Assembly (NCBI GenBank): GCA_963768425.1
Contig: CAVYHV010000013.1
Location: 39,555-103,554 of the forward strand
Reading direction: 5' to 3'
DNA from: Candidatus Bathyarchaeota archaeon
GTDB lineage: Archaea > Thermoproteota > Bathyarchaeia > Bathyarchaeales > Bathycorpusculaceae
Length of the DNA stretch: 64,000 nt
Positions 1 to 9,048 of the stretch are shown here, one piece after another. Made by a program: the position numbers and the translations under genes. The notes under the pieces were generated by a model that was not told where the DNA came from, made no database searches, and worked only from the letters and a program-made list of their open reading frames with translations. Every line of letters starts with the position of its first letter. Position 1 is the first letter of the stretch.

Positions 1-402
1 GCCATCAAGCCAGTTACCGAATACGTCAATCCCTCTACTGGCATTTTCAATCGTAAAATTTGAAATGAAAAAATTACCCTCATTTAAATTAACCTCAATT
101 AGAGATAAATTGAAATATGGATAACCTAACCCGTAACCTATCAAGTAGGTGGTATCTGGATTTTCTCCAACAAGATTAAGCGCTTTACTGATATCTATTG
201 TCTCATTATAATAAACTCCGCTCTTAACGAAGACAGTATCTCCAGCACTTGCATTATTAATTGCGTCTTGAATGGTTAGGTACTGGTCTGGAACAACAAG
301 GGTTCTGGTTTGTGCTCTTGCGGTTGAAGATGGTATTAAAACTAAGGACATTGTGAATAATAGAACGAGCAACAATGCGAAACTCGTGTTCATACTGCCC
401 AT
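1..402 (-). CDS. Secreted NosD/right-handed beta-helix surface protein, N-terminal part (runs off window edge)
   Basis: Read by hand from ATG at 402: MGSMNTSFALLLVLLFTMSLVLIPSSTARAQTRTLVVPDQYLTIQDAINNASAGDTVFVKSGVY. Signal peptide plus the VPDQY.TIQ.AIN.A..GDTVFVK.G.Y motif typical of beta-helix protein starts. Absent from the ORF track. Confidence 0.85.
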   Translation of the reverse strand, partial: MGSMNTSFALLLVLLFTMSLVLIPSSTARAQTRTLVVPDQYLTIQDAINNASAGDTVFVKSGVYYNETIDISKALNLVGENPDTTYLIGYGLGYPYFNLSLIEVNLNEGNFFISNFTIENASRGIDVFGNWLDG

Positions 403-452
403 GCTTCATAATAAGAAATTAAAAGCGATAAAAGGATACTCGTCAACACTCC

Positions 453-470
453 TTGACTAAGCTAAGTCAA
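453..470. repeat. Dyad site A, TTGACT-AAGCTA-AGTCAA, followed by AGTTTC
   Basis: Perfect 6-bp inverted arms with a 6-bp spacer; one of five copies, each upstream of a gene. Confidence 0.9.
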
Positions 471-493
471 AGTTTCCTTACTGACAATGCCAT

Positions 494-1252
494 CTACGCT
501 AAAGGTAATTCACCAATCCATATTGCGTCAAGCTGAAAACCTGTAATTTCCTCATGACTTGTAACAGCCAAATAAATAGAAATGGTACCTTCATCTCCAC
601 CATTCATCCATGTTTCAGACCAAGCATCAGGTGGCAGGTCAAGATGCACCAAATCAGTTGAGTTAATTTCTTTAGTTCCGCTGAATATCTCCGCTGTCAT
701 GAAAGCATAGACTTGCGCCGATTTCGGGGCAACAGTTCCATTTGAGTAGTACAAAGTTATCTGGTTTGGCGGCAGGTTCTGTACTGAATAATCGTTTCGA
801 AGCGTAACATTGATGACAATACAAGGCTCCCCCTTAATGACAGCTATTTTCCCCGCTGGTTTTCCGTTTATTATTCCCATGCTAGTTCTAGTATCAAATG
901 GGTAAGAACCAGAGCTGACGTTTGCGGAAACTACGAAGATTTTGCTAGTGTTTCCTCTAAAAGTAAGATAATAGCCTGTGGTTGGTTGGATTGGAGCAAT
1001 AGAGGGCTTTACAACGCGTGAAGAAGCCGAAATGACAACCGCAATGTAAGAAAAAAAGAATCCACAAAAGACCATGATTACGATTAAAGCTGCAACCGCA
1101 TATTTGTATTTCTGCCATTTACCAGATTCTTGCAATTTACCATTTACCCTGCTTAACCATTTTTCATAGTTGCTTTTTAGACTATCTTTTAGAACATCAA
1201 ACGTACAAATCGTTGGGCAGGGACTATACACCCAACCGTGGGAAAAGGTCAT
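494..1252 (-). CDS. Hypothetical membrane-anchored protein; true start probably downstream of 1252
   Basis: One hydrophobic segment (AVAALIVIMVFCGFFFSYIAVVI) then a beta-rich domain. The N-terminal MTFSH is just the translated tail repeat. Confidence 0.7.
   Translation of the reverse strand: MTFSHGWVYSPCPTICTFDVLKDSLKSNYEKWLSRVNGKLQESGKWQKYKYAVAALIVIMVFCGFFFSYIAVVISASSRVVKPSIAPIQPTTGYYLTFRGNTSKIFVVSANVSSGSYPFDTRTSMGIINGKPAGKIAVIKGEPCIVINVTLRNDYSVQNLPPNQITLYYSNGTVAPKSAQVYAFMTAEIFSGTKEINSTDLVHLDLPPDAWSETWMNGGDEGTISIYLAVTSHEEITGFQLDAIWIGELPLA
1238..1251 (-). repeat. Post-stop tail motif TGACCTTTTCCCAC; other copies at 1968-1981, 4119-4133, 7383-7397
   Basis: Same ~14-mer at or just after the 3' end of four unrelated genes. 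Confidence 0.85.
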
Positions 1253-1551
1253 TATGTATTATTCTTTAAAGGGTTCTGTTTTGTTTCTTTGCTTATTAGC
1301 AGTTTTATTATGAAGCATACATTTACTACCAAAAAGAGAACGAAGACATAGAATGGAAAGTTAGCCATTGATATTGCAATCGGAACAATAACTTGTCCTG
1401 TCTGTGCTGGTGCTAAGCCAATGGTGGTTAGAGTGTAGCCAGTTACTACTGAACCGTTGATTTCTGAGAGCATTAGTTGGCTGGAAAGATAAAGAAGCAA
1501 ACCTATCATAACATTGGCAGTGAGGATGACAGCTGTAAACCTTTTTGTCAT
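1252..1551 (-). CDS. Small two-TM membrane protein
   Basis: 99-aa ORF with two hydrophobic segments. Confidence 0.7.
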   Translation of the reverse strand: MTKRFTAVILTANVMIGLLLYLSSQLMLSEINGSVVTGYTLTTIGLAPAQTGQVIVPIAISMANFPFYVFVLFLVVNVCFIIKLLISKETKQNPLKNNT

Positions 1552-1669
1552 GTTTAGCCTATCTCTACGCTATGCAGATTTAAGAGTTATCCACTCTGTA
1601 ATAGCGAAGTTTCTAACCCTTGAATTACTCGTTAATAGCCCTAATCGTTTAAAGCATTCTGGAAACTTC
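1549..1669. repeat. ~120-bp intergenic module, copy 1 (start codon, promoter, GAAGTTTC...GAAACTTC inverted repeat)
   Basis: Aligns with 1844-1958: catgttta..tctacgct...cagattta...aatagcgaagtttctaac.cttgaatt.ctcg.taatagccc...aaacttc. Confidence 0.85.
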
Positions 1670-1674
1670 AACCA

Positions 1675-1846
1675 TTACGTTCCTTTTTTAGAATGTTTCT
1701 TTAGAGAAATTCTTTCCATAATTGATGCTTGACCATAACTGGTTGGTCCCCTAAATGCTGGGTTAGGTTTACCCCTCAAAGCTTTTACTTGTCTCTTAGC
1801 TGTTTTTATTTTCTTTTTTGATTTGTTTTGTCCTCTTCTTTTCCAT
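1675..1846 (-). CDS. Small Lys/Arg-rich protein (~56 aa) with one frameshift in an A-run
   Basis: Removing one A from the homopolymer gives MEKKRTKQIK-KKIKTAKRQVKALRGKPNPAFRGPTSYGQASIMERISLKKHSKKGT*. It fills the space between the two 120-bp modules. Confidence 0.5.
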
Positions 1847-1958
1847 GTTTAATCTCTTTCTACGCTTTTCAGATTTAAAATTTATCTCCTTACAAATAGC
1901 GAAGTTTCTAACTCTTGAATTTGCTCGGTAATAGCCCAAAGCACTTAATGTAAACTTC
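1844..1958. repeat. ~120-bp intergenic module, copy 2
   Basis: Direct repeat of 1549-1669; partial third copy AAATTCAAGAG...GAAAGTT at 7443-7463 on the opposite strand. Confidence 0.85.
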
Positions 1959-3272
1959 TGGTATGCTGTGGGAAAGGGTCACTTGCTTCAAGTTAGCTGT
2001 TTTTTGATGCTTTTTATGATACACAGTAAGACTTACTCCGACAGCAATTACTATTACAGTTACGAGAATCGCTATCACGAACTCAGAGGAAAAAGGTTCT
2101 GACTTGGCAACGGTAAAATCGATAGTTTTGGAAGCACCCATTATTCCAAAAGTGCTGTTAGCATAAACTGTAATGCTGTGTGAGCCATAAGCAATGTTTG
2201 GTATGGTTGTGTTGCCGTTGATTGTGACATTAATTTGTTCGTCAAGGCTATAGCCTACCCAATTAAACGGCTTATCTATAGAGAATGCCAAAGAAACGTT
2301 AGCATTGTCATACACCTTATTCAATGGCGACATAACTGAAACTTTAGGCGGAATTATTTCCTGCTCATAATTTGCAAGAAAAGACGAATTGACGGGTCGA
2401 ATAAGCGGATAACGGTCTATATTCTGTGAATCTAGCACGTATGGGCTATCACTTATTCCTGTGTTGCCAATTTCTTTCCCCGTTTGTACTCCCCAATAGT
2501 TTCCACCAGCAGGAAAGCCACCATCCCAAACGTTTACGGAATTAGGAGTATAAGGAATTCCACCCAAATCGCCATTACTAGCCTGCGTTCCATACGGTAT
2601 GTCCATGAGGTTATTGTGATAAATAGTGTTATTAGAAGCATGCCAAAACCAAATTCCGCAACTTGTAAGACCGTCTTGACTTGCGTTATCCACGATGTCA
2701 TTATTAGTAATCAAGTTCTTTTGCGTATTATCAAAAAACATTCCAGTAGCATCATTCAAGATTAGATTTCCAGTTATGATGTTTGAATTTCCACCTTCGA
2801 CATCAATACCATTGAATGCCTCACCGTTCAATTCCCAAAGGCTCCATATACTGAAAATGGTGTTGTTTACAATCATAACATTTGAAGAATTGGATAACAA
2901 AATACCGTCCTCAGCCCCACCATCTTCAGGGTAGACAACATTGGAACCAAACTGATTTCCTGTAATAACAAAACCATTTACTGTTATGTTTGAATCTGCA
3001 TATAACAAAAGACCATTGGATAAGCTAAATCCGTTTCCATCAAGTACAATGTTGCTTCTATTCACGGTTATGCTTCCGTCTATGTTACTCGTCAAATTAT
3101 AGGTGTTTCCAGATGGAACTATTGGTGCTGATGTTGGAGTTATGCTTCCGTCAACGTTTATTGTGACATTGCCTTGATATTGAGCCTTAACTGGTTGAAG
3201 ATAAACTACATTTGAAGCTATCAGGCATAGAAGGACTAAACTGAATGCGATAATACCTCTACTTTTTGCCAT
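1908..3272 (-). CDS. NosD/CASH-type beta-helix surface protein with Ig-like domain and C-terminal TM anchor
   Basis: Signal peptide, TINVDGSI.P start, Asn-rich beta-helix repeats, NTIYHNN...WD.G...GNYW...IDRYPL, WVGYSLD Ig-like domain, TM plus basic tail. Confidence 0.9.
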   Translation of the reverse strand: MAKSRGIIAFSLVLLCLIASNVVYLQPVKAQYQGNVTINVDGSITPTSAPIVPSGNTYNLTSNIDGSITVNRSNIVLDGNGFSLSNGLLLYADSNITVNGFVITGNQFGSNVVYPEDGGAEDGILLSNSSNVMIVNNTIFSIWSLWELNGEAFNGIDVEGGNSNIITGNLILNDATGMFFDNTQKNLITNNDIVDNASQDGLTSCGIWFWHASNNTIYHNNLMDIPYGTQASNGDLGGIPYTPNSVNVWDGGFPAGGNYWGVQTGKEIGNTGISDSPYVLDSQNIDRYPLIRPVNSSFLANYEQEIIPPKVSVMSPLNKVYDNANVSLAFSIDKPFNWVGYSLDEQINVTINGNTTIPNIAYGSHSITVYANSTFGIMGASKTIDFTVAKSEPFSSEFVIAILVTVIVIAVGVSLTVYHKKHQKTANLKQVTLSHSIPEVYIKCFGLLPSKFKS

Positions 3273-3321
3273 AATTCTACATTCAAGTTGTTTGCAATAA
3301 AAGCGTTCTTGTATACGTTTC

Positions 3322-3339
3322 TTGACTAAGCCAAGTCAA
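3322..3339. repeat. Dyad site B, TTGACT-AAGCCA-AGTCAA
   Basis: Context gtttcTTGACTaagccaAGTCAAagtttc. Confidence 0.9.
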
Positions 3340-3390
3340 AGTTTCTGGACCAAACCTTGCGGTGGTCATTGCGCGATTACCGTACCACAG

Positions 3391-3996
3391 TCAAGCTTCT
3401 TGTTCTTTGTTGGATGAAGATAGGAAGTTTACGCCTATAGCTATCATCCAAATAAGTTGTGGATAAATTATCATTCTTTCCATACCGCCCACGCCAATTC
3501 CCAAGTAGCTTGGACGTGCACCAAAATAAAGCACGAGAGCGACAAGCGATACAACACCCAATATTACGGAAAAATACTTGAAAGGACCCCTGATTATCTT
3601 GTACGAGGCAATTGCGGCTATGCTCCAAAAGACAAAAACCATGAATGCGCCGATGGTGTGAATGACTGGGGTTCCATGAACAATAAATGAGTTTTCAGGA
3701 AAAATACCCGCTAAAAGATAGCCTAAACTTCCCAGAAAAATGGAAGCTGTGATTGCCCGACTCTTGAATTCACGGTGAATAAAATATACACTTATTAGAG
3801 CCAATAAGCTTAGCAAGATTGTCGATGGGTCCTCAATTATGGCAGAGGGTTTACCCCATACGCCTAGGTCGCTTATGTAGTTCAAAGACGTGCTGTAATT
3901 TGGATAAACCGCTTGTGCGAGTAAAATTGCTATGGTATGCTGTGCAGCGGCAATAAAAAGTAAGGCTCCAGCCAGTGTCTTGTTGCTATAATTCAT
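3391..3996 (-). CDS. DUF998-like multi-pass membrane protein
   Basis: YPNYS...NYISDLG, GIFPE, HTIGA and G.GGMERMIIYP motifs. Confidence 0.8.
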   Translation of the reverse strand: MNYSNKTLAGALLFIAAAQHTIAILLAQAVYPNYSTSLNYISDLGVWGKPSAIIEDPSTILLSLLALISVYFIHREFKSRAITASIFLGSLGYLLAGIFPENSFIVHGTPVIHTIGAFMVFVFWSIAAIASYKIIRGPFKYFSVILGVVSLVALVLYFGARPSYLGIGVGGMERMIIYPQLIWMIAIGVNFLSSSNKEQEA

Positions 3997-4066
3997 AACT
4001 CGAAGGTAAACTGCTTAATTATTTAAAGCTTGATACTGATTAAAAAAGCCTATTCGTAAAGGTTTC

Positions 4067-4084
4067 TTGACTGAGCTAAGTCAA
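4067..4084. repeat. Dyad site C, TTGACT-GAGCTA-AGTCAA
   Basis: Context gtttcTTGACTgagctaAGTCAAtttttc. Confidence 0.9.
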
Positions 4085-4130
4085 TTTTTCTTGACCAAGA
4101 GATTGAGTGGGTACACCTTTGGGAAAAGGT

Positions 4131-5052
4131 CTATTGATTTAGTTTAGCGGTTTTTTGATGCCTTCTTCTATAAAAAACCAAGCTCAGAACTACTACTACT
4201 ATGACGAATACTGCCGCACTCAAGGCAATAGCTATACTTAACGTTGGCTGGTTAGTCGGTGGAGGCAAAAAAGCCTCAGTCTTCACAAGATAGATATTGC
4301 CCGACATGGGAATATTAGACGCAAAATATCCGACTCCCAGTATAGCAAGTGCACCGTCAGAGGTTTCAATCACCGAACTTACCGTAAGAGAAGCAGGTAG
4401 GCTTGGAGCATATCCATAAGGAAGTGTATAGTTCAAATTTAATACCCATTGGGTGTTATTGTTGGAATCGGTCTTAATTATGAATCCACCTGTCCAAAAA
4501 ACGAACCCATCATCGCTTGTTCTAATTTTTTCCGATTGATGAAGAAGTTCCACCCAAATTTGGTACGCTTGAATAGTTCTTGTTAGATTCAATGTTTCCT
4601 TCGGAATCCATTTTGATAACGGTTGGGTATGACTCATGAGGAGGAAGTTCATAATTACCCCAATTCCCTGAAACTTCAAGACCACCATCGCTTGTCTGCT
4701 TAATTGCCGTTCCAGCAAAGTTACCGATGGTTTTTGTCCAATTGACATTTCCTAAAGAGTTAACCTTGTAAACCGTTGCTGGTACAAAAGTATCTTGAAA
4801 TCCCCAACCTTCGTCCATGAAGGCGTATCCACCATCACTTGTTTGAATCAGATTGGATACAGCTTCAACACCTGAATTATTGAAATAATTACCTGTACTG
4901 TTAAAATAATTATCATAGTTTTGTTGCCAAGCAAGAGCTGGGGCTTGATTGTTTGACTGAGCTTTGACAATGGTTGGTTGAAGATTGAGTAAAGGTGTTA
5001 GAAGTAAAATAAGAATACCCATTAAAGCCAAACGTTTGTTCATTCTACTCAA
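4131..5052 (-). CDS. Secreted, C-terminally anchored beta-propeller-like protein (frameshift near 4520)
   Basis: ORFs 4522..5052 and 4131..4748 join; repeated (Q/E)TSDGG...K.DS.GN..W blades; signal peptide and TM anchor. Confidence 0.8.
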
Positions 5053-5111
5053 TCTCTTCCTTAACCTGTCATGGGAACTATGCAGCGATAAAAGATTCCA
5101 GTAAAAGTTCC

Positions 5112-5129
5112 TTGACTTAGTTTAGTCAA
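5112..5129. repeat. Dyad site D, TTGACT-TAGTTT-AGTCAA, 5 bp from the IS end
   Basis: gttccTTGACTtagtttAGTCAAcgttt|GAGACCGTG. Confidence 0.9.
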
Positions 5130-5134
5130 CGTTT

Positions 5135-6802
5135 GAGACCGTGTAAAAAATCGCATAACGACCGCTTGATAGCTTGAAAATTACACAGCACTATTCTCGC
5201 TTTTTCTTTTTCTTTGTTTATCTTTTAACAAGCGCACCGATTAGAGCTTCAACTCCAAGAATGTTCAAAGCTCTCCTCAAATTATAAGAAAACAAAAGCA
5301 ACCCAATTTCCCCACTTACCTTCCTAAGACCTCTTAGCAACAAATAAGGAGCACCAAAAGCCCTCTTAACTGTCCCAAACGTATGCTCAACCACCTTTTT
5401 GCGCTCATCCATAACTTCTGGATGAGATCTCATTCGTTTTCTCATATCGTCGACAACTTGCTCATGGACCCAGCGCCAAATCAACCGCCCCTTTTTGTTG
5501 CCTGTACATTTAGTCATAAAAAACTGGCAAGAAAAACAAACACCCTTCAAGCACTTGTAAATTCGCCTATCCACCCCATCCTGAACTGTACAGCAGTGAA
5601 AGAACAGGCGCTGTCCAGCCGGGCAAACATACAAATCAGCATCATTGTCATAGCGGAACTTGTCAGCGGTAAACTCTGGCGAAACTATACTTCCACCGCT
5701 TCCCGACCTCTTCACCGCAACAAATGGTGTAACTCCATTATCGACGCACTGCTTGATCTGCATAAAATCAAAATAACCCTTATCCCCAAGAGCATCAATC
5801 TGCTCAACACCCAGTGTTTCTTTAGCGCTTATAGCCACGCCGCTTAATTGATTTAGGTCTGAGGCTTCGTTAGTCACCAAGTAGTTAACGATGAGGTGGT
5901 TTTTTGAATCTACAGCTGCCTGCATGTTATAGCAGGATTCTACTCTGCCATGACTCATCATCTGTCGACAATCCGGATCGGTCAAAGCAACCTCGTTTTG
6001 ACCACTCTTTTGCATTCTGTCAAGGATTGCTTCAGATTTCTCTTTTTTCTCAAGTAAAGCTGCAAGCTTGTCTACTTCAAAAGCTTTAGCTTCTTTGCCT
6101 GCTTCGCTACTGGCTTGGTGCTCGTCAGATGCTTCCTTCTCATCTTGGGCATCCAACTCTTCAAGATAATGTTTTACTGATTTTTCCATGATCTTTATTC
6201 TTTTCGCAAGCGCTTTTTGGTTAAAGGCTTTATCGTTGGAGTTGACGGCCTTTAGTTTGGTGCCGTCAACGGCTATTTGTTGTGCCCCATAGAGACTGAG
6301 GTCTTTTAGGAAGGCTACAAAGTCCTTGAATAGGGCACCTATTGCCTGTGGGTTGTCTTTTCTGAAATCCGCTATTGTTTTAAAGTCAGGTGTTAAGCCT
6401 TTGAGTAGCCACATTGCTTCGAGGTTTGTTTTGGATTCTCGTTCTAGCTTTCTGCTTGATCGGATGTGGTTTAAGGCCTCCGTAGAGGTAGAGTTTGCAG
6501 AGGTCTTTTGGGTTGTATGATGGTCTTCCAAGATCTTTTGGTGTTGAGTGGGTGAAGCCTAACTTTTCCATGTTAAGCGTGTTTACGTAGGCATCGATGA
6601 ATCTGACCGGGTTGTCCGTTTGTACGTATTCTTCTATGGTTTTAGGCAGCAGGAACGTTTGGCTTCTGGATAAGCCTTCTACATAGCTGTTGGTTTCGTT
6701 GTCCATTTGTCTCACCTTACCCTTTGTGAGCCATTGCTATGTGTCTAGATTTAAGGTTAACGGGATTCTAAGCGATTAAGAGAAGACTTTTCACACGGTC
6801 TC
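5135..6802 (-). mobile_element. IS1182-family insertion sequence
   Basis: Terminal inverted repeats GAGACCGTGTAAAAAATC and GACTTTTCACACGGTCTC enclose the transposase; no direct target duplication. Confidence 0.9.
5218..6715 (-). CDS. IS1182-family DDE transposase (frameshift near 6480)
   Basis: GRPSYNP..L.KLYLYG, PDFKTIADFR, IAVDGTKLKA, YNMQAAVD, DKGYF, YVCPAG, VEHTFGTVK. Confidence 0.92.
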
Positions 6803-6807
6803 AAACT

Positions 6808-6825
6808 TTGACTTAACTTAGTCAA
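6808..6825. repeat. Dyad site E, TTGACT-TAACTT-AGTCAA, inverted relative to A-D, 5 bp from the IS end
   Basis: GGTCTC|aaactTTGACTtaacttAGTCAAcgaag. Confidence 0.9.
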
Positions 6826-6881
6826 CGAAGTTTTACGAAAGGCCTTTTATCGTTTGAGAATTCGTTAATAAATTAAAGGTA

Positions 6882-7385
6882 ATGAGAGAAGAAAACAATG
6901 AAGACAATCAGTGCCATAATTGTAGCCCTTGTCATGGTTCTAATAGTTTTTGCAATAATAGGTTCAATGTCTTTGTGTATCCAATCGTAGCGGGTCAGAA
7001 ACTAACTCTCCCAAATGAACAATGGGTACAATACAAACAGGGTTGGAAACTGATTTCATTTCATTATGTGCAATATGGTGCCATTTCCGCTATACTTTAT
7101 GACCAGTTGTACGTGGAAGCTGATAATTACCCTTTGAATAATGGATTTCCAGTGGGTCTCTACCCTATTACTCGAGGAGCTACCTACAATATGGATGGCA
7201 CGATGAGAATAACGATATCAGAAATAAATTCGAATTATTTGGTTATATCTATCAGTTCTTCATTAAAAACATCCTTTTGGCAAACCACCAGCATAATATA
7301 CATAATAGTAATCGAAATCTTGTTAGCCGTAATCATCGCACTACTGCTCCTGAGAAAACGAAAAACCGCTAACCTGAGTGAGTAG
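6882..7385 (+). CDS. Membrane-anchored hypothetical protein; probable signal anchor MKTISAIIVALV in another frame from 6898
   Basis: C-terminal TM plus RKRKTANLSE; N-terminal frameshift likely. Confidence 0.7.
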   Translation: MREENNEDNQCHNCSPCHGSNSFCNNRFNVFVYPIVAGQKLTLPNEQWVQYKQGWKLISFHYVQYGAISAILYDQLYVEADNYPLNNGFPVGLYPITRGATYNMDGTMRITISEINSNYLVISISSSLKTSFWQTTSIIYIIVIEILLAVIIALLLLRKRKTANLSE

Positions 7386-7879
7386 ACCTTTTCCCACGAA
7401 AAATTGAAGAACTCACTGTTGCCATAGACTTAAACACTCTGGAAATTCAAGAGCACGAAAGTTAAAAGTTATCTTCACCGAAAGATGAGTCAGGGAGTCA
7501 GTTTGAATCTTTTTCTGACCACGTTTTTTGTGTTTTTAACTTTTTGCCGAGAGAATAACAGTTCTACAAGGTGCTGGCTTCGGATGAAAGACCTAGGGAT
7601 TTTGCTTTAGAATGGTTTCGATCATATCGCCCTGAATTCTCAGTTCCTTTGAAAGAAATCGACGAGAGGGCAAACTTCTTCAAAGATAGTCAGTTAGTTT
7701 ATTAGCTGTAAACCTACAAAATATTTTTTATAAATAAAAATTAAACATCTTGATTCAAATTTTTCATAGTGGTAGAACCTAGAAAAAAGTACTAATAATG
7801 GTCCTTTCTTGTGCAAAACAAAAAATGGTCAGATAAGAAAGCTTAAGTGTTAAACCATCCATAAAAGTGCAGAGCGCTC

Positions 7880-9048
7880 ATGAAGTTGAAAGGTTCGCCT
7901 CTTAATCTGAACGTTTATGAAGCTTCTGAAACGCTGACAAACAAGCATTTTCAGCAATTCAAAACGGTGGATTTTGAAAGATTCTATCTTCCTGAGAGCA
8001 TGCGACCTTTCACTGACCTCATCCCTGTTGGCAAGAAAGAGTTTATCGCGGATGACAACCGGGGAGCAGTTTCTACTTTACCCGCATTAAAATAGACGGC
8101 ATGGACTTTTACCTATCAGTTAAAGGCATAGGTTCAACCACTAACCCGTTTTCAACTCAGCTCCTCGGCAAAGACGAAATATGCAGCCTGCTAAAGGATT
8201 CCATACTGAAAGACAGAATCGTGAATTCCGAGGGAATCGCTCCAAGATACCTTACGGGGGAACTATGGTTAAGAGGCTCTCCATATGGTGGACAAGGACT
8301 TGAGCACGCGGCTACTGCGTTGAGGGTGTCAGAATTGGCTGCCCTTACGTCTATTCACGGATTTAGAGTCGCGCCAGTTCTGAAAATCGTTTTCCTTCCC
8401 CCAGACCTTGAGAATGAAATCAAAAAAATATTTTGGTACCGCAGATTCGCGGGCAAAATAGTTCAAGAAATACGGCTGGTTCCTTCTAACGTCCGAATTT
8501 ATTTTCACGCAGGGAGCACAGTCGGAGGCAACATACACTCAATTTTTGACTTGTTTGGATTGGACAACAACGATAAAGCAGTTGATTTTCTGAAAAATTT
8601 CGTTAAAACCGGCATCGCCTACCTAACCCTGTTCCCCCGGACACTAAAGAAAAACGAAGATGGAACTTTTTCTGGCTTGGATTTCTATGATGTCTGGCTT
8701 GACAAGGACGCAGTGCTCGCTCCAGATGGCACTATTTACTTCGTTGATCTTGAAGGGCTGGAATGGATAAATGTGGAGGAAAAGAAAATCTTGGAGAAGA
8801 TTGAGGACCAGATCTACAGGTCCCTGTACGAATTCATGTATGCGTATGAACAGATAGAACGAGAACGATTTGCAAGGTTCGGAGGTGTGGCTGACAGAAA
8901 GCTGCAGTTTGAATATCTTCTCAAGCAAACCCTCAGGGATGATGAAGTTATTGGCCTTGCAAGTGAGGGACAAAGTCTTAAGCTGGTCATCGGTAACATT
9001 CTTGGGGAACAACGTTTAACTAAAAAATTCCCAATCATGGACTGGTAA
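7880..9048 (+). CDS. Kinase-fold protein resembling SelO/YdiU (frameshift in A-run near 8090)
   Basis: DNRGAV..YLSVKGIGSTT, RLVPSNVRI and DVWLDKD...GTIYFVDLE occur in the order of SelO GDGRA..QLKG.G.T, RVAPSH.RFG and HGVMNTDN...TIDYG. Confidence 0.65.

What the first reader, a model, noticed from the sequence alone, without database searches (positions are those of the whole stretch)
1..7463. Candidate gene-cassette array: unrelated cargo genes joined by shared boundary modules
Seen: eight unrelated, mostly membrane or secreted genes are separated by short spacers built from the same parts. Five genes are preceded by (G)AAAC(T/G)TTGACT-N6-AGTCAA (site C has GAAAAA), two by a 120-bp module containing GAAACTTC, and four end in GACC(T/C)TTTCCCA. 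Left of the IS all are co-oriented, and the array continues off the left edge. Inference: heterogeneous single genes with shared flanks are how integron cassette arrays and pdif modules are built. The sites do not match canonical attC (RYYYAAC...GTTRRRY), so this may be an undescribed archaeal cassette platform for diversifying surface proteins. No recombinase gene lies in this window.
Basis: partly seen in the sequence, partly recalled or inferred. Interest (0 to 1): 0.88.

Follow-up and report, generated by a model that had tools for sequence, protein, structure and literature searches.

The report
Shared promoter module of surface-protein genes
The repeated boundary motifs are most likely a genus-wide promoter and regulator-binding module, plus a shared gene tail, in front of and behind about twenty secreted surface-protein genes of an uncultured soil archaeon; they do not look like recombination sites of an integron-like cassette system.

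Summary
The window has five exact TTGACT-N6-AGTCAA palindromes, two ~110-nt modules and four GACCYTTTCCCA motifs, all in 1-7396.

The cassette-platform reading is only partly supported.
- The palindrome belongs to a ~55-nt module: TAGTCAAG-AAAC-yTTGACT-N6-AGTCAAG-AAAC-CTTTACG-AAnAG-CCTTTTAT.
- A TATA-like element lies 19 nt downstream and an ATG about 50 nt downstream, followed by a signal peptide.
- The genome has about 22 copies on 10 contigs. 27 of 60 sampled congeners carry the extended motif; a reversed control scores 0 in 61 genomes.
- No integron integrase or serine recombinase was found, and no tyrosine recombinase lies on this contig.
- The spacers do not fold like attC, and the N6 cores differ, 16 distinct of 20.
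- The 3' motif is the conserved tail (TM helix, RRHRKTANL, stop, T-tract) of a paralogous anchor.

Gene order is not conserved. Two units are 88% and 96% identical to other species against a 71-79% background, so single genes do turn over here.

IS1182- and IS110-family elements insert specifically into the module. The scan noted IS1182 in such palindromes before on other DNA (e1-6368037, e1-6369140).

The parts
1..402 (-). N-terminal 134 codons of a 375-aa secreted NosD-like beta-helix protein with a TM helix and RRHRKIANL tail. The rest of the gene lies left of the window.
   Evidence: Its paralogue L025:4566-5786 hits NosD_copper_fam.
427..484 (-). Module 1, copy A. Upstream half-site, palindrome 453-470, second half-site, and the BRE/TATA-like CCTTTTAT at 427-434. 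The ATG is 50 nt from the palindrome.
   Evidence: family D1.
494..1252 (-). Membrane-anchored protein with no Pfam family. It has paralogues on contig C19. The true start is probably internal, near 1135.
   Evidence: The start is inferred by eye from the paralogue's N-terminus.
1239..1250 (-). 3' motif GACCTTTTCCCA behind gene 1252-1551.
1252..1551 (-). 99-aa small membrane protein. The family is widespread in the genus.
   Evidence: blocks 1243-1591 at 83% in G043 and 79% in G059.
1544..1652 (-). Module 2, copy 1: a second conserved promoter / 5' region (TTAAAT box, GAAACTTC).
   Evidence: D3, D11. One search gives many 81-93% matches in congeners.
1796..1846 (-). 16-codon remnant ORF: a start region fused to a relic of the basic tail. 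It looks like a collapsed unit.
   Evidence: Sequence. (D13) links 1796-1818 to the tail-coding stretch 1993-2015.
1839..1948 (-). Module 2, copy 2.
   Evidence: D3, D11.
1908..3272 (-). 454-aa secreted NosD-like beta-helix protein. In place of the family's stop codon it reads GTG, so it runs 24 codons on through the 3' motif at 1969-1980.
   Evidence: The unit 1993-3357 is 88% identical to G016.
3299..3353 (-). Module 1, copy B (palindrome 3322-3339).
3391..3996 (-). DUF998 polytopic membrane protein. It is an outsider to the family: the block 3356-4046 is 96% identical to G049, where it has no module.
4044..4098 (-). Module 1, copy C (palindrome 4067-4084, GAAAAA variant). Its TATA region is a hybrid with the incoming DUF998 block.
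4120..4131 (-). 3' motif behind gene 4131-5052.
4131..5052 (-). Frameshifted surface-protein gene, present as two ORFs with the break near 4530-4540. The orthologue in G052 is an intact 309-aa protein.
   Evidence: Contigs of runs X1 and X2 cover the break with no differences.
5089..5134 (-). Module 1, copy D (palindrome 5112-5129). Its upstream half is cut off by the IS. GTTT at 5131-5134 abuts the IS.
5135..6802 (-). IS1182-family insertion sequence of 1668 bp with inverted ends GAGACCGTGT... Its transposase is split into ORFs 5218-6531 and 6386-6715.
   Evidence: (NF033551, 305.7 bits against a cut-off of 270). Contigs of X1 and X3 lack one base at 6473.
6803..6855 (+). Module 1, copy E (AAAC 6803-6806, palindrome 6808-6825, CCTTTTAT about 6843-6850). 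It faces right.
   Evidence: I1-I3.
6882..7385 (+). Frameshifted surface-protein gene. The signal-peptide ORF starts at 6898 in another frame. It ends in a TM helix plus RKRKTANLSE.
   Evidence: A contig of X2 covers 6892-7042 with no differences.
7385..7396 (+). 3' motif directly behind the stop codon.

Best explanation
The shared boundaries are the conserved 5' and 3' ends of independent transcription units that belong to one regulon of secreted, C-terminally anchored surface proteins. The organism is an uncultured archaeon whose congeners are labelled Candidatus Bathyarchaeota.

The 5' module is an operator plus core promoter. It has three to four hexamer half-sites of alternating orientation, 12 bp apart: AGTCAAg / cTTGACT / AGTCAAg / cTTTACg. 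These lie directly upstream of a BRE/TATA-like AAnAG-CCTTTTAT. The start codon follows about 27 nt after the TATA, so the mRNAs would be leaderless or nearly so.

I infer that a dimeric DNA-binding regulator, still unidentified, binds these dyads cooperatively. I also infer that it acts on TBP/TFB recruitment, more likely as an activator (about 60:40) because the sites lie upstream of the BRE.

The 3' motif is the nucleotide-level conserved end of a paralogous anchor: TM helix, RRHRKTANL-like tail, stop codon, then GACCTTTTCCCA. Its T-tract may serve as the terminator.

The array grows and shrinks by duplication, deletion and occasional insertion of foreign genes, not by a dedicated site-specific recombinase. 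Because the module is abundant and conserved, two IS families use it as their landing site, which explains the IS in the window.

Shown: motif architecture, geometry, distribution, gene class, absence of integron parts. Inferred: regulator binding, activation, terminator role.
For: Geometry.
- All 20 exact palindromes of the genome, plus 2 one-mismatch copies, share the extended module in one orientation relative to the next gene.
- TTTTA/TTTAA starts exactly 19 nt after the palindrome in 27 of 43 instances (14 own, 29 from congeners).
- It starts within +16..+24 in 34 of 43, against 2.6% of 5000 random genome positions.
- The start codon lies at +49..+51 in 12 of 22 own sites.
- The consensus over 43 instances is conserved at 70% or more outside the searched pattern: upstream AGTCAAG, downstream GAAAC, TTTAC and CCTTTTAT.

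Gene class.
- 20 of 22 own sites are followed by an ORF with a hydrophobic signal or anchor N-terminus. The 2 exceptions are an IS110 transposase and a 23-codon stub.
- At least 15 of the 22 end in a TM helix plus basic tail, judged by eye.
- In congeners, 23 of 30 instances have an ORF of 50 aa or more starting 25-130 nt downstream, and 21 of those 23 have such an N-terminus.
- The genome background with the same test is 511 of 2565 ORFs, 19.9%.
- Domains are extracellular types (NosD/beta-helix, GH32/43-like propeller plus Ig) or unknown.

Distribution.
- The palindrome occurs in 14 of 18 congeners but in 1 of 12 genomes of other families of the order.
- The asymmetric motif AAAC-N-TTGACT-N6-AGTCAA occurs 14 times in this genome and 66 times in 27 of 60 congeners. 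Its reversed control occurs 0 times in 61 genomes.
- Sites occur singly (C9, C10, C14, C28) as well as in arrays.

Dyad arms are fixed while the N6 varies: 16 distinct of 20.

3' motif. 7 of 8 exact copies follow the tail codons and the position where the family's stop codon lies, within a conserved stretch of about 40 nt.

An exosortase/archaeosortase-family gene is present.
Against: - There is no transcript or binding evidence. No RNA run was listed.
- The regulator is not identified. The only lead is a Tfx-like HTH gene (sub-threshold) that lies 1.3-3.5 kb from modules in 4 genomes.
- 9 of 43 instances lack the TATA-like element at the expected place, and 7 of 30 congener instances have no ORF by my test.
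- The orthologous promoter in G016 has lost two bases of the right arm although the gene is intact.
- Units do move. Blocks 1993-3357 (88%) and 3356-4046 (96%) exceed the 71-79% background, and they end at module edges or at the TATA. A recombination role for the conserved ends is therefore not excluded.
- Two tyrosine recombinase genes lie beside modules in the C30 cluster, and one lies 4 kb from the C28 site.
Confidence: 0.8

Rival explanations
1. The palindromes are recombination sites (attC-, pdif- or dif-like) of an unidentified recombinase acting in trans. The array would then be a true site-specific cassette platform.
For: - The TTGACT-N6-AGTCAA geometry (inverted arms, 6-bp core) resembles tyrosine-recombinase core sites. 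That resemblance is recalled knowledge.
- Gene order differs between species, and two units show recent inter-species exchange.
- Three of five tyrosine recombinase genes lie within 5 kb of a module.
Against: - No homology block ends in the core. The palindrome travels with the downstream gene (1993-3357), or is left behind (the block starts at the TATA, 4046).
- 16 distinct cores among 20 sites, and all five in the window differ.
- Arms are 6-8 nt, not 11, and all sites are co-oriented with their genes.
- Spacers fold no better than shuffles in 9 of 10 folds.
- IntI model: best score 89.5 bits against a cut-off of 265. No serine recombinase was found, and no tyrosine recombinase lies on C13.
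- The C30 recombinase family is multi-copy (53 of 61 genomes match). By my manual comparison of the places listed, only one of the palindromes listed for the 18 congeners has such a gene within a few kb (G007:C56).
- G012 has 5 palindromes and no match to that family.
Confidence: 0.05
2. The module is a selfish or structural repeat (REP-like palindrome, or MITE/IS-derived sequence) with no regulatory role. It would sit in intergenic DNA and serve only as an IS landing pad.
For: - At least 12 of 15 IS1182-family copies in 12 genomes, and 3 of 3 IS110-like left ends, lie in the module.
Against: - The module has a strict orientation and a fixed distance to a TATA-like box and a start codon.
- It is restricted to signal-peptide genes: 20 of 22 sites, against a 19.9% background.
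- The arms are conserved while the core varies.
- The copies flanking IS elements differ from each other as much as other copies do, so they are not part of the IS.
Confidence: 0.06
3. The shared flanks are only leftovers of recent tandem duplication of one gene family, with no selection on the motifs themselves.
For: - Several array genes are paralogues, and their signal peptides and tails are alike.
- Homology often extends from the module into the signal-peptide codons.
Against: - 50-60-nt module matches at 80-97% recur in many congeners, while neighbouring core genes are 71-79% identical.
- The arms are invariant and the N6 is free.
- The unrelated DUF998 gene now sits behind a module.
- Module instances lie on 10 contigs of this genome.
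Confidence: 0.07

Closest known systems
Archaeal regulator-binding sites upstream of BRE/TATA (recalled examples: EarA sites before the Methanococcus fla promoter, Ptr2, TrmB-family TGM sites)
   Same: Short dyad or repeated half-sites lie at a fixed position just upstream of BRE/TATA, are shared by a set of functionally related genes, and are conserved within a lineage.
   Different: The sequence (AGTCAAG-AAAC-CTTGACT units at a 24-bp period) matches no motif that I can name. The regulator is unknown. The regulon is a fast-evolving set of surface proteins in an uncultured group. These comparisons are from memory, not from a call.
Integron cassette arrays, including archaeal integrons (Ghaly et al. 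2022, PMC9668308; passages read)
   Same: Tandem, mostly co-oriented short genes with repeated intergenic elements. The content is accessory, part of it secreted, and the order is variable.
   Different: The paper defines integrons by attC sites that fold as single strands, an IntI with its additional domain, and attI. None of these was found here. The repeats here are 5' promoters with their own TATA-like box, not 3' attC sites.
pdif (Xer) modules of Acinetobacter plasmids (recalled)
   Same: Single genes or small gene sets bounded by short inverted-repeat sites with a 6-bp centre.
   Different: pdif sites are 11-6-11 and alternate in orientation. Here the arms are 6-8 nt, all sites are co-oriented with the genes, the cores differ, and the breakpoints lie outside the core.
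Insertion sequences with repeat-specific targets: IS1272 of the IS1182 family targeting inverted repeats (PMC5678879, abstract read); IS1111-attC and REP-targeting IS (recalled)
   Same: The IS1182-family element inserts into the 4-bp centre (AAAC) of the AGTCAAG-AAAC-CTTGAC dyad.
   Different: The target here is an operator of a surface-protein regulon. A 4-bp duplication is seen in 2 of 3 own copies, whereas the abstract reports no duplications for new IS1272 insertions.
Archaeosortase sorting signals PEF-CTERM / PEFG-CTERM
   Same: A C-terminal TM helix plus basic tail; some members carry P-E-F/L before the helix. An archaeosortase-family gene is present.
   Different: The best scores (15.5 bits against a cut-off of 25, and 13.5 against 23) are below the curated thresholds. 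Most tails lack PEF and carry RRHRKTANL instead.

Membership tests
Integron (bacterial or archaeal) | Integron integrase IntI with the IntI-specific additional domain, next to the array | tested here: not met
   TIGR02249 in the whole assembly: best score 89.5 bits against a cut-off of 265. PF00589 matches lie on C30, C14, C28 and C8 only, none on C13. The assembly is 91% complete.
Integron (bacterial or archaeal) | attC at the 3' end of each cassette, folding as an imperfect single-stranded hairpin | tested here: not met
   Ten DNA folds of the spacers, both strands: z-scores from -2.63 to +0.45, and 9 of 10 are no better than shuffles. Only a 6-bp hairpin forms. The element lies 5' of the genes. 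The attC covariance model of IntegronFinder could not be run.
Integron (bacterial or archaeal) | Cassettes mostly promoterless, read from a common promoter | tested here: not met
   Each unit has its own TATA-like element at +19 from the palindrome (13 of 14 own instances within +16..+24).
pdif / Xer modules | 28-bp 11-6-11 sites in alternating orientation around each module | tested here: not met
   Arms are 6-8 nt. All six array copies are co-oriented with their genes.
pdif / Xer modules | Compatible (identical) central regions between partner sites | tested here: not met
   16 distinct N6 cores among 20 sites. The five in the window all differ.
Regulator-controlled archaeal promoter (operator plus BRE/TATA) | Fixed spacing and orientation relative to the TATA box and the start codon | tested here: met
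   TTTTA/TTTAA at +19 in 27 of 43 instances and within +16..+24 in 34 of 43, against a 2.6% background. ATG at +49..+51 in 12 of 22 own sites.
Regulator-controlled archaeal promoter (operator plus BRE/TATA) | Shared by functionally coherent genes and conserved across species | tested here: met
   20 of 22 own sites and 21 of 30 congener sites precede signal-peptide ORFs, against a 19.9% background. The motif is in 27 of 60 congeners; the reversed control gives 0.
Regulator-controlled archaeal promoter (operator plus BRE/TATA) | Mapped transcription start and a protein that binds the site | not testable with these tools
   No RNA run was listed. No binding data exist. The regulator is unidentified.
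IS1182 family | Transposase above the family cut-off, with terminal inverted repeats | tested here: met
   NF033551 scores 305.7 bits against a cut-off of 270. The ends are GAGACCGTGT... / ...ACACGGTCTC. The transposase is split in this copy.
PEF-CTERM / PEFG-CTERM archaeosortase substrates | C-terminal domain scoring above the curated cut-off | tested here: not met
   Seven tails tested. The best scores are 15.5 bits (cut-off 25) and 13.5 bits (cut-off 23). A sortase-family gene is present (TIGR04178, 60.1 bits against 23).

The most novel reading that the evidence does not exclude
The conserved 5' module (operator, promoter and signal-peptide codons) and 3' module (anchor tail, stop and T-tract) may do double duty as portable homology arms. 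They would let these archaea swap, delete and capture single surface-protein genes between loci and between species without any dedicated recombinase.

This would be an integrase-free 'promoter-cassette' system that places newcomers such as the DUF998 gene under the regulon's control. Two IS families have specialised on it.
Probability: 0.18. Interest if true: 0.65.

Novelty: new member of a known kind. Interest (0 to 1): 0.4.

Why it matters
These uncultured soil, peat and sediment archaea have almost no experimentally known gene regulation.

- A clearly delimited operator-promoter module in front of about 20 secreted proteins per genome gives a concrete handle. It predicts a regulon, a binding site to fish for the regulator, and strong native promoters for future genetics.
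- It also shows how a first-pass 'cassette array' pattern can arise from a shared promoter and a shared anchor tail. This is a useful caution when searching for integron-like systems in archaea.
- The specialisation of IS1182- and IS110-family elements on this operator, and the unit-wise exchange between species, suggest that the surface proteome of these organisms turns over quickly.

Tried and rejected
Recombinase at the array end. None was found within 10 kb to the left. That stretch holds a TetR regulator, an ABC-2 transporter, a chagasin-like inhibitor and a papain-like protease. There is none on contig C13.

Recombinase linkage elsewhere. Two paralogous 299/300-aa tyrosine recombinases sit beside modules on C30. 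They score far below the XerA and IntI cut-offs. The family is multi-copy in 53 of 61 genomes, and by my manual comparison of the places listed it is not linked to palindromes in congeners. I rejected this as a dedicated partner.

Reads.
- No listed holder is on record as RNA.
- The four DNA runs laid (X1, X2, X3, X6) gave only 78-407-nt low-depth contigs.
- No contig bridges a whole unit, and no excision joint is supported.
- The single 'opposite strands' joint, 3326/6814 in X6, links two palindromes and has a 36-nt side. I treat it as a repeat artefact.

Known RNA families and tRNA genes: none in 1-8000 at E up to 1, and no tRNA gene in C13:38055-46187 (L013; window 1-6633).

Regulator hunt.
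- TetR, TrmB-like and HTH_45/Sso10a-like genes near arrays are not consistently linked.
- The Tfx-like HTH160 is only a lead. It has no PDB relative at E up to 5.

The metagenome scan returned only 5 loci, 4 of them short contigs of 1.3-3.4 kb.

Literature. Searches on Bathyarchaeia promoters, surface proteins, archaeosortase and IS1182 targets found no report of this motif. Supplements were not opened. The data files of Ghaly et al. 2022 could list archaeal MAGs of this group with integrons, and I could not check that.

IntegronFinder could not be run.

Full report
WHAT IS IN THE SEQUENCE

The window is G000:C13:39555-103554 of a 2.96-Mb, 33-contig assembly with about 44% G+C. Related loci carry the title 'Candidatus Bathyarchaeota archaeon'.

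Positions 1-5052 hold minus-strand genes. Positions 5135-6802 hold an IS. Positions 6882-7385 hold one plus-strand gene.
- Five exact TTGACT-N6-AGTCAA palindromes. The expectation is 0.21, and no shuffle reaches 5. None lies in the other 57 kb.
- Two copies of a ~110-nt module, 1544-1652 and 1839-1948.
- Four exact GACCYTTTCCCA. The expectation is 0.71, and 2 of 100 shuffles reach 4, so this is weak alone. Genome-wide there are 8 copies against 0 for a reversed control.

The array continues about 1.1 kb to the left, with one more module and two more genes.

THE PALINDROME IS PART OF A LARGER, ORIENTED MODULE

The genome has 20 exact palindromes on 9 contigs. Relaxing to 2 mismatches and asking for context gave 25 rows. 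I kept 22 on 10 contigs. I dropped C6:313544, C9:10012 and C14:15469, which by eye lack the BRE/TATA-like consensus.

Put in gene orientation, the sites align over about 55 nt. The consensus of 43 instances (14 own, 29 from congeners) is TAGTCAAG-AAAC-yTTGACT-N6-AGTCAAG-AAAC-CTTTACG-AAnAG-CCTTTTAT. Conservation is 70% or more at most positions outside the searched pattern. Read this way, the module holds hexamer half-sites of alternating orientation every 12 bp and ends in a BRE/TATA-like box. Naming it BRE/TATA rests on my recalled knowledge of archaeal promoters.

Geometry.
- TTTTA/TTTAA starts exactly 19 nt after the palindrome in 27 of 43 instances.
- It starts within +16..+24 in 34 of 43, against 2.6% of 5000 random positions.
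- The start codon follows at +49..+51 in 12 of 22 own sites.
- That is about 27 nt after the TATA, the usual distance to an archaeal transcription start (recalled). The mRNAs would be leaderless or nearly so.

WHAT THE MODULE DRIVES

- 20 of 22 own sites are followed by an ORF with a hydrophobic signal or anchor N-terminus, many of the form MGxxGKSFALILILIMTISS.
- The two exceptions are an IS110 transposase inserted behind the palindrome and a 23-codon stub.
- At least 15 of the 22 end in a TM helix plus a basic tail, judged by eye: RRHRKTANSKQ, RKRKTANLSE, RHRKTGNL, VRKRTPKK.
- In 30 instances from other genomes, 23 have an ORF of 50 aa or more starting within 25-130 nt. Of those, 21 have the hydrophobic N-terminus.
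- The same crude test marks 511 of 2565 ORFs genome-wide, 19.9%.
- Where domains are recognisable they are extracellular: NosD-like beta-helix, or a GH32/43-like propeller with Ig domains. Many proteins have no family.
- The tails resemble archaeosortase signals but stay below the cut-offs. An archaeosortase-family gene is present.

DISTRIBUTION

- The palindrome is in 14 of 18 congeners, at 0-9 copies per genome. It is in 1 of 12 genomes of other families of the order, and that one hit lies in a context without the module.
- The asymmetric motif AAAC-N-TTGACT-N6-AGTCAA occurs 14 times here and 66 times in 27 of 60 congeners. Its reversed control occurs 0 times in all 61 genomes.
- Sites occur singly as well as in arrays.
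- The module is therefore a lineage-wide cis element tied to one class of genes.

THE 3' MOTIF AND MODULE 2

Seven of the eight exact GACCYTTTCCCA copies follow a stretch of about 40 nt conserved at the nucleotide level. It encodes ...H-R/Q-K-T-A-N-L... and reaches the position where the family's stop codon lies. The motif is therefore the end of a paralogous anchor tail plus a T-tract just behind the stop. The terminator role is my inference.

In gene 1908-3272 the stop codon is replaced, and the ORF runs on through the motif.

Module 2 is a second conserved promoter and 5' region (TTAAAT box) of a small-membrane-protein family. It also matches many congeners at 81-93%. One of its two copies drives only a 16-codon relic in which the start is fused to a remnant of the tail (sequence, D13).

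Fusions of module 2 directly onto module 1 occur at C17:232265, in L003 and in L099. This fits deletions between units.

TESTS OF THE CASSETTE READING

- Recombinases. The integron-integrase model scores at most 89.5 bits against a cut-off of 265. There is no serine recombinase. The five tyrosine recombinases over cut-off lie on C30 (3), C14 and C28, not on C13.
- C30 cluster. Two paralogous recombinases lie beside modules on C30. Their family matches in 53 of 61 genomes, with up to 12 copies.
- By my manual comparison of the places listed, only one congener palindrome (G007:C56) has such a gene within a few kb. G012 has five palindromes and no match.
- Folding. Spacers folded as single-stranded DNA give z-scores from -2.63 to +0.45. 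Nine of ten are no better than shuffles, and only a 6-bp hairpin forms.
- Cores. The N6 cores are 16 distinct of 20, and all five in the window differ. This argues against pairwise strand exchange between sites.
- Synteny. Pieces of 1-5133 find their best matches in different genomes and at different loci:
  - 1993-3357 in G016 at 88%;
  - 3356-4046 in G049 at 96%;
  - 4144-5134 in G052 at 75%;
  - 1243-1591 in G043 at 83%.
- Flanking genes are not shared.
- Background identity. The neighbouring 20 kb of the window matches the same four genomes at 71-79% over long stretches, with one ~370-nt piece at 84-87%. The 88% and 96% units were therefore exchanged recently.
- Breakpoints. The block ends lie outside the palindrome:
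  - The G016 block includes the whole module.
  - The G049 block begins at the TATA and ends 35 nt after the stop.
  - In G049 the DUF998 gene has no module and lies between two response-regulator-like genes, so named from their N-terminal sequences, not from a family search.
- Mosaics. A metagenome contig (L098) has the same beta-helix gene body at 85% with a different 5' end.
- Together these show unit-wise and mosaic turnover. They do not show site-specific exchange at the palindrome.

THE IS

- The element at 5135-6802 is an IS1182-family IS (305.7 bits against a cut-off of 270).
- Its two other copies in the genome sit in (A/G)GTCAAGAAAC | AAAC-yTTGAC. That is the 4-bp centre of the first dyad of the module, with AAAC duplicated.
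- Across the genus, 12 of 15 copies with a readable end have GTCAA or TTGAC within 12 nt of the end. Two more lie in degenerate versions and one does not.
- The window's copy has GTTT on the left and AAAC on the right, with a palindrome facing outward on both sides (I1).
- This is what recombination between two IS copies inserted in two divergent modules would leave, either as a deletion or as one end of an inversion. That is my inference. It also explains why the gene to the right is inverted relative to the rest.
- An IS110-family element has 3 of 3 left ends directly after (A/G)GTCAAGA.
- Earlier notes of this scan on other genomes saw IS1182 in such palindromes and read them as REP-like or dif-like. 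IS1272, of the same family, is reported to target inverted repeats (PMC5678879, abstract).

MECHANISM AND VERDICT

The best-supported reading is a regulon. An unidentified dimeric regulator binds the phased half-sites upstream of BRE/TATA and controls about 20 surface-protein genes. It is more likely an activator, given the position upstream of the BRE. Binding and the sign of regulation are inferred.

The regulator lead is a 160-aa HTH with sub-threshold Tfx likeness, translationally coupled to a 273-aa membrane protein. It lies 1.3-3.5 kb from modules in G000:C17, G001:C4, G010:C19 and G016:C4.
- Close orthologues are found in 8 of 9 genus genomes with 3 or more palindromes.
- They are found in 3 of 10 genus genomes with fewer.
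- These genomes are kin and the loci may be one ancestral locus, so this is weak evidence.

The cassette idea survives only in a weaker form: conserved gene ends that favour homology-driven or illegitimate exchange of single units.

Compared with the definition used for archaeal integrons (attC folding, IntI with its extra domain, attI; PMC9668308, passages), none of the defining parts is present.

I rate this a new member of a known kind, a lineage-specific operator-promoter regulon. The side finding, IS targeting of that operator, is tidy and testable.

Noticed in passing
window 5131-6806; G000:C6:125432-127111; G000:C10:172599-174309; loci L041-L050: The IS1182-family element inserts into the AAAC centre of the AGTCAAG-AAAC-CTTGAC dyad and duplicates those 4 bp. 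12 of 15 copies in 12 genomes have the half-site within 12 nt of an end.
   Followed up: yes
window 5131-5134 and 6803-6806: The window's IS copy has GTTT on the left and AAAC on the right (an inverted, not direct, duplication), with outward-facing promoters on both sides. This points to IS-IS recombination (deletion or inversion) between two insertions.
   Followed up: partly
G000:C30:117271-118350, C6:173380-173836, C28:19290-19502: An IS110-family (RNA-guided) element has all three left ends directly after (A/G)GTCAAGA of the module. The C6 and C28 copies are fragments. Its guide RNA was not examined.
   Followed up: partly
window 6473: Contigs of two other runs (X1, X3) lack one base here, which would join the two transposase ORFs. 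The window's copy is frameshifted or carries an assembly error.
   Followed up: partly
window 4530-4540 and about 6960-6990: Two array genes are frameshifted. Independent contigs (X1, X2) cover both places without differences, so the breaks look real.
   Followed up: partly
window 3356-4046: The DUF998 gene block is 96% identical to G049:C3, against a 71-79% background. In G049 it has no module. Its junction with the module lies in the TATA region, at a short stretch of shared letters.
   Followed up: yes
G000:C17:229399-230696 (L029:3400-4700): A coupled pair: a 160-aa HTH protein with sub-threshold Tfx likeness, and a 273-aa polytopic membrane protein. It lies 1.3-3.5 kb from modules in four genomes and is a candidate regulator.
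   Followed up: partly
G000:C30:105944-106840 and 110302-111201 (L025:2942-3841, 7300-8202): Two paralogous tyrosine recombinases (68% identical), each about 0.2-0.7 kb from and diverging from a module-driven gene. They sit in a region that also carries plasmid- or virus-like genes. The family has up to 12 copies per genome in the genus.
   Followed up: partly
G000:C13:38452-38724 and C1 about 60-300: Stub proteins of 80-90 aa that consist only of signal peptide, PT-rich linker, TM helix and tail. They look like units without a central domain.
   Followed up: no
window 7880-9048: ORFs 7880-8095 and 8101-9048 are adjacent in different frames and may be one interrupted gene. I did not examine it.
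   Followed up: no
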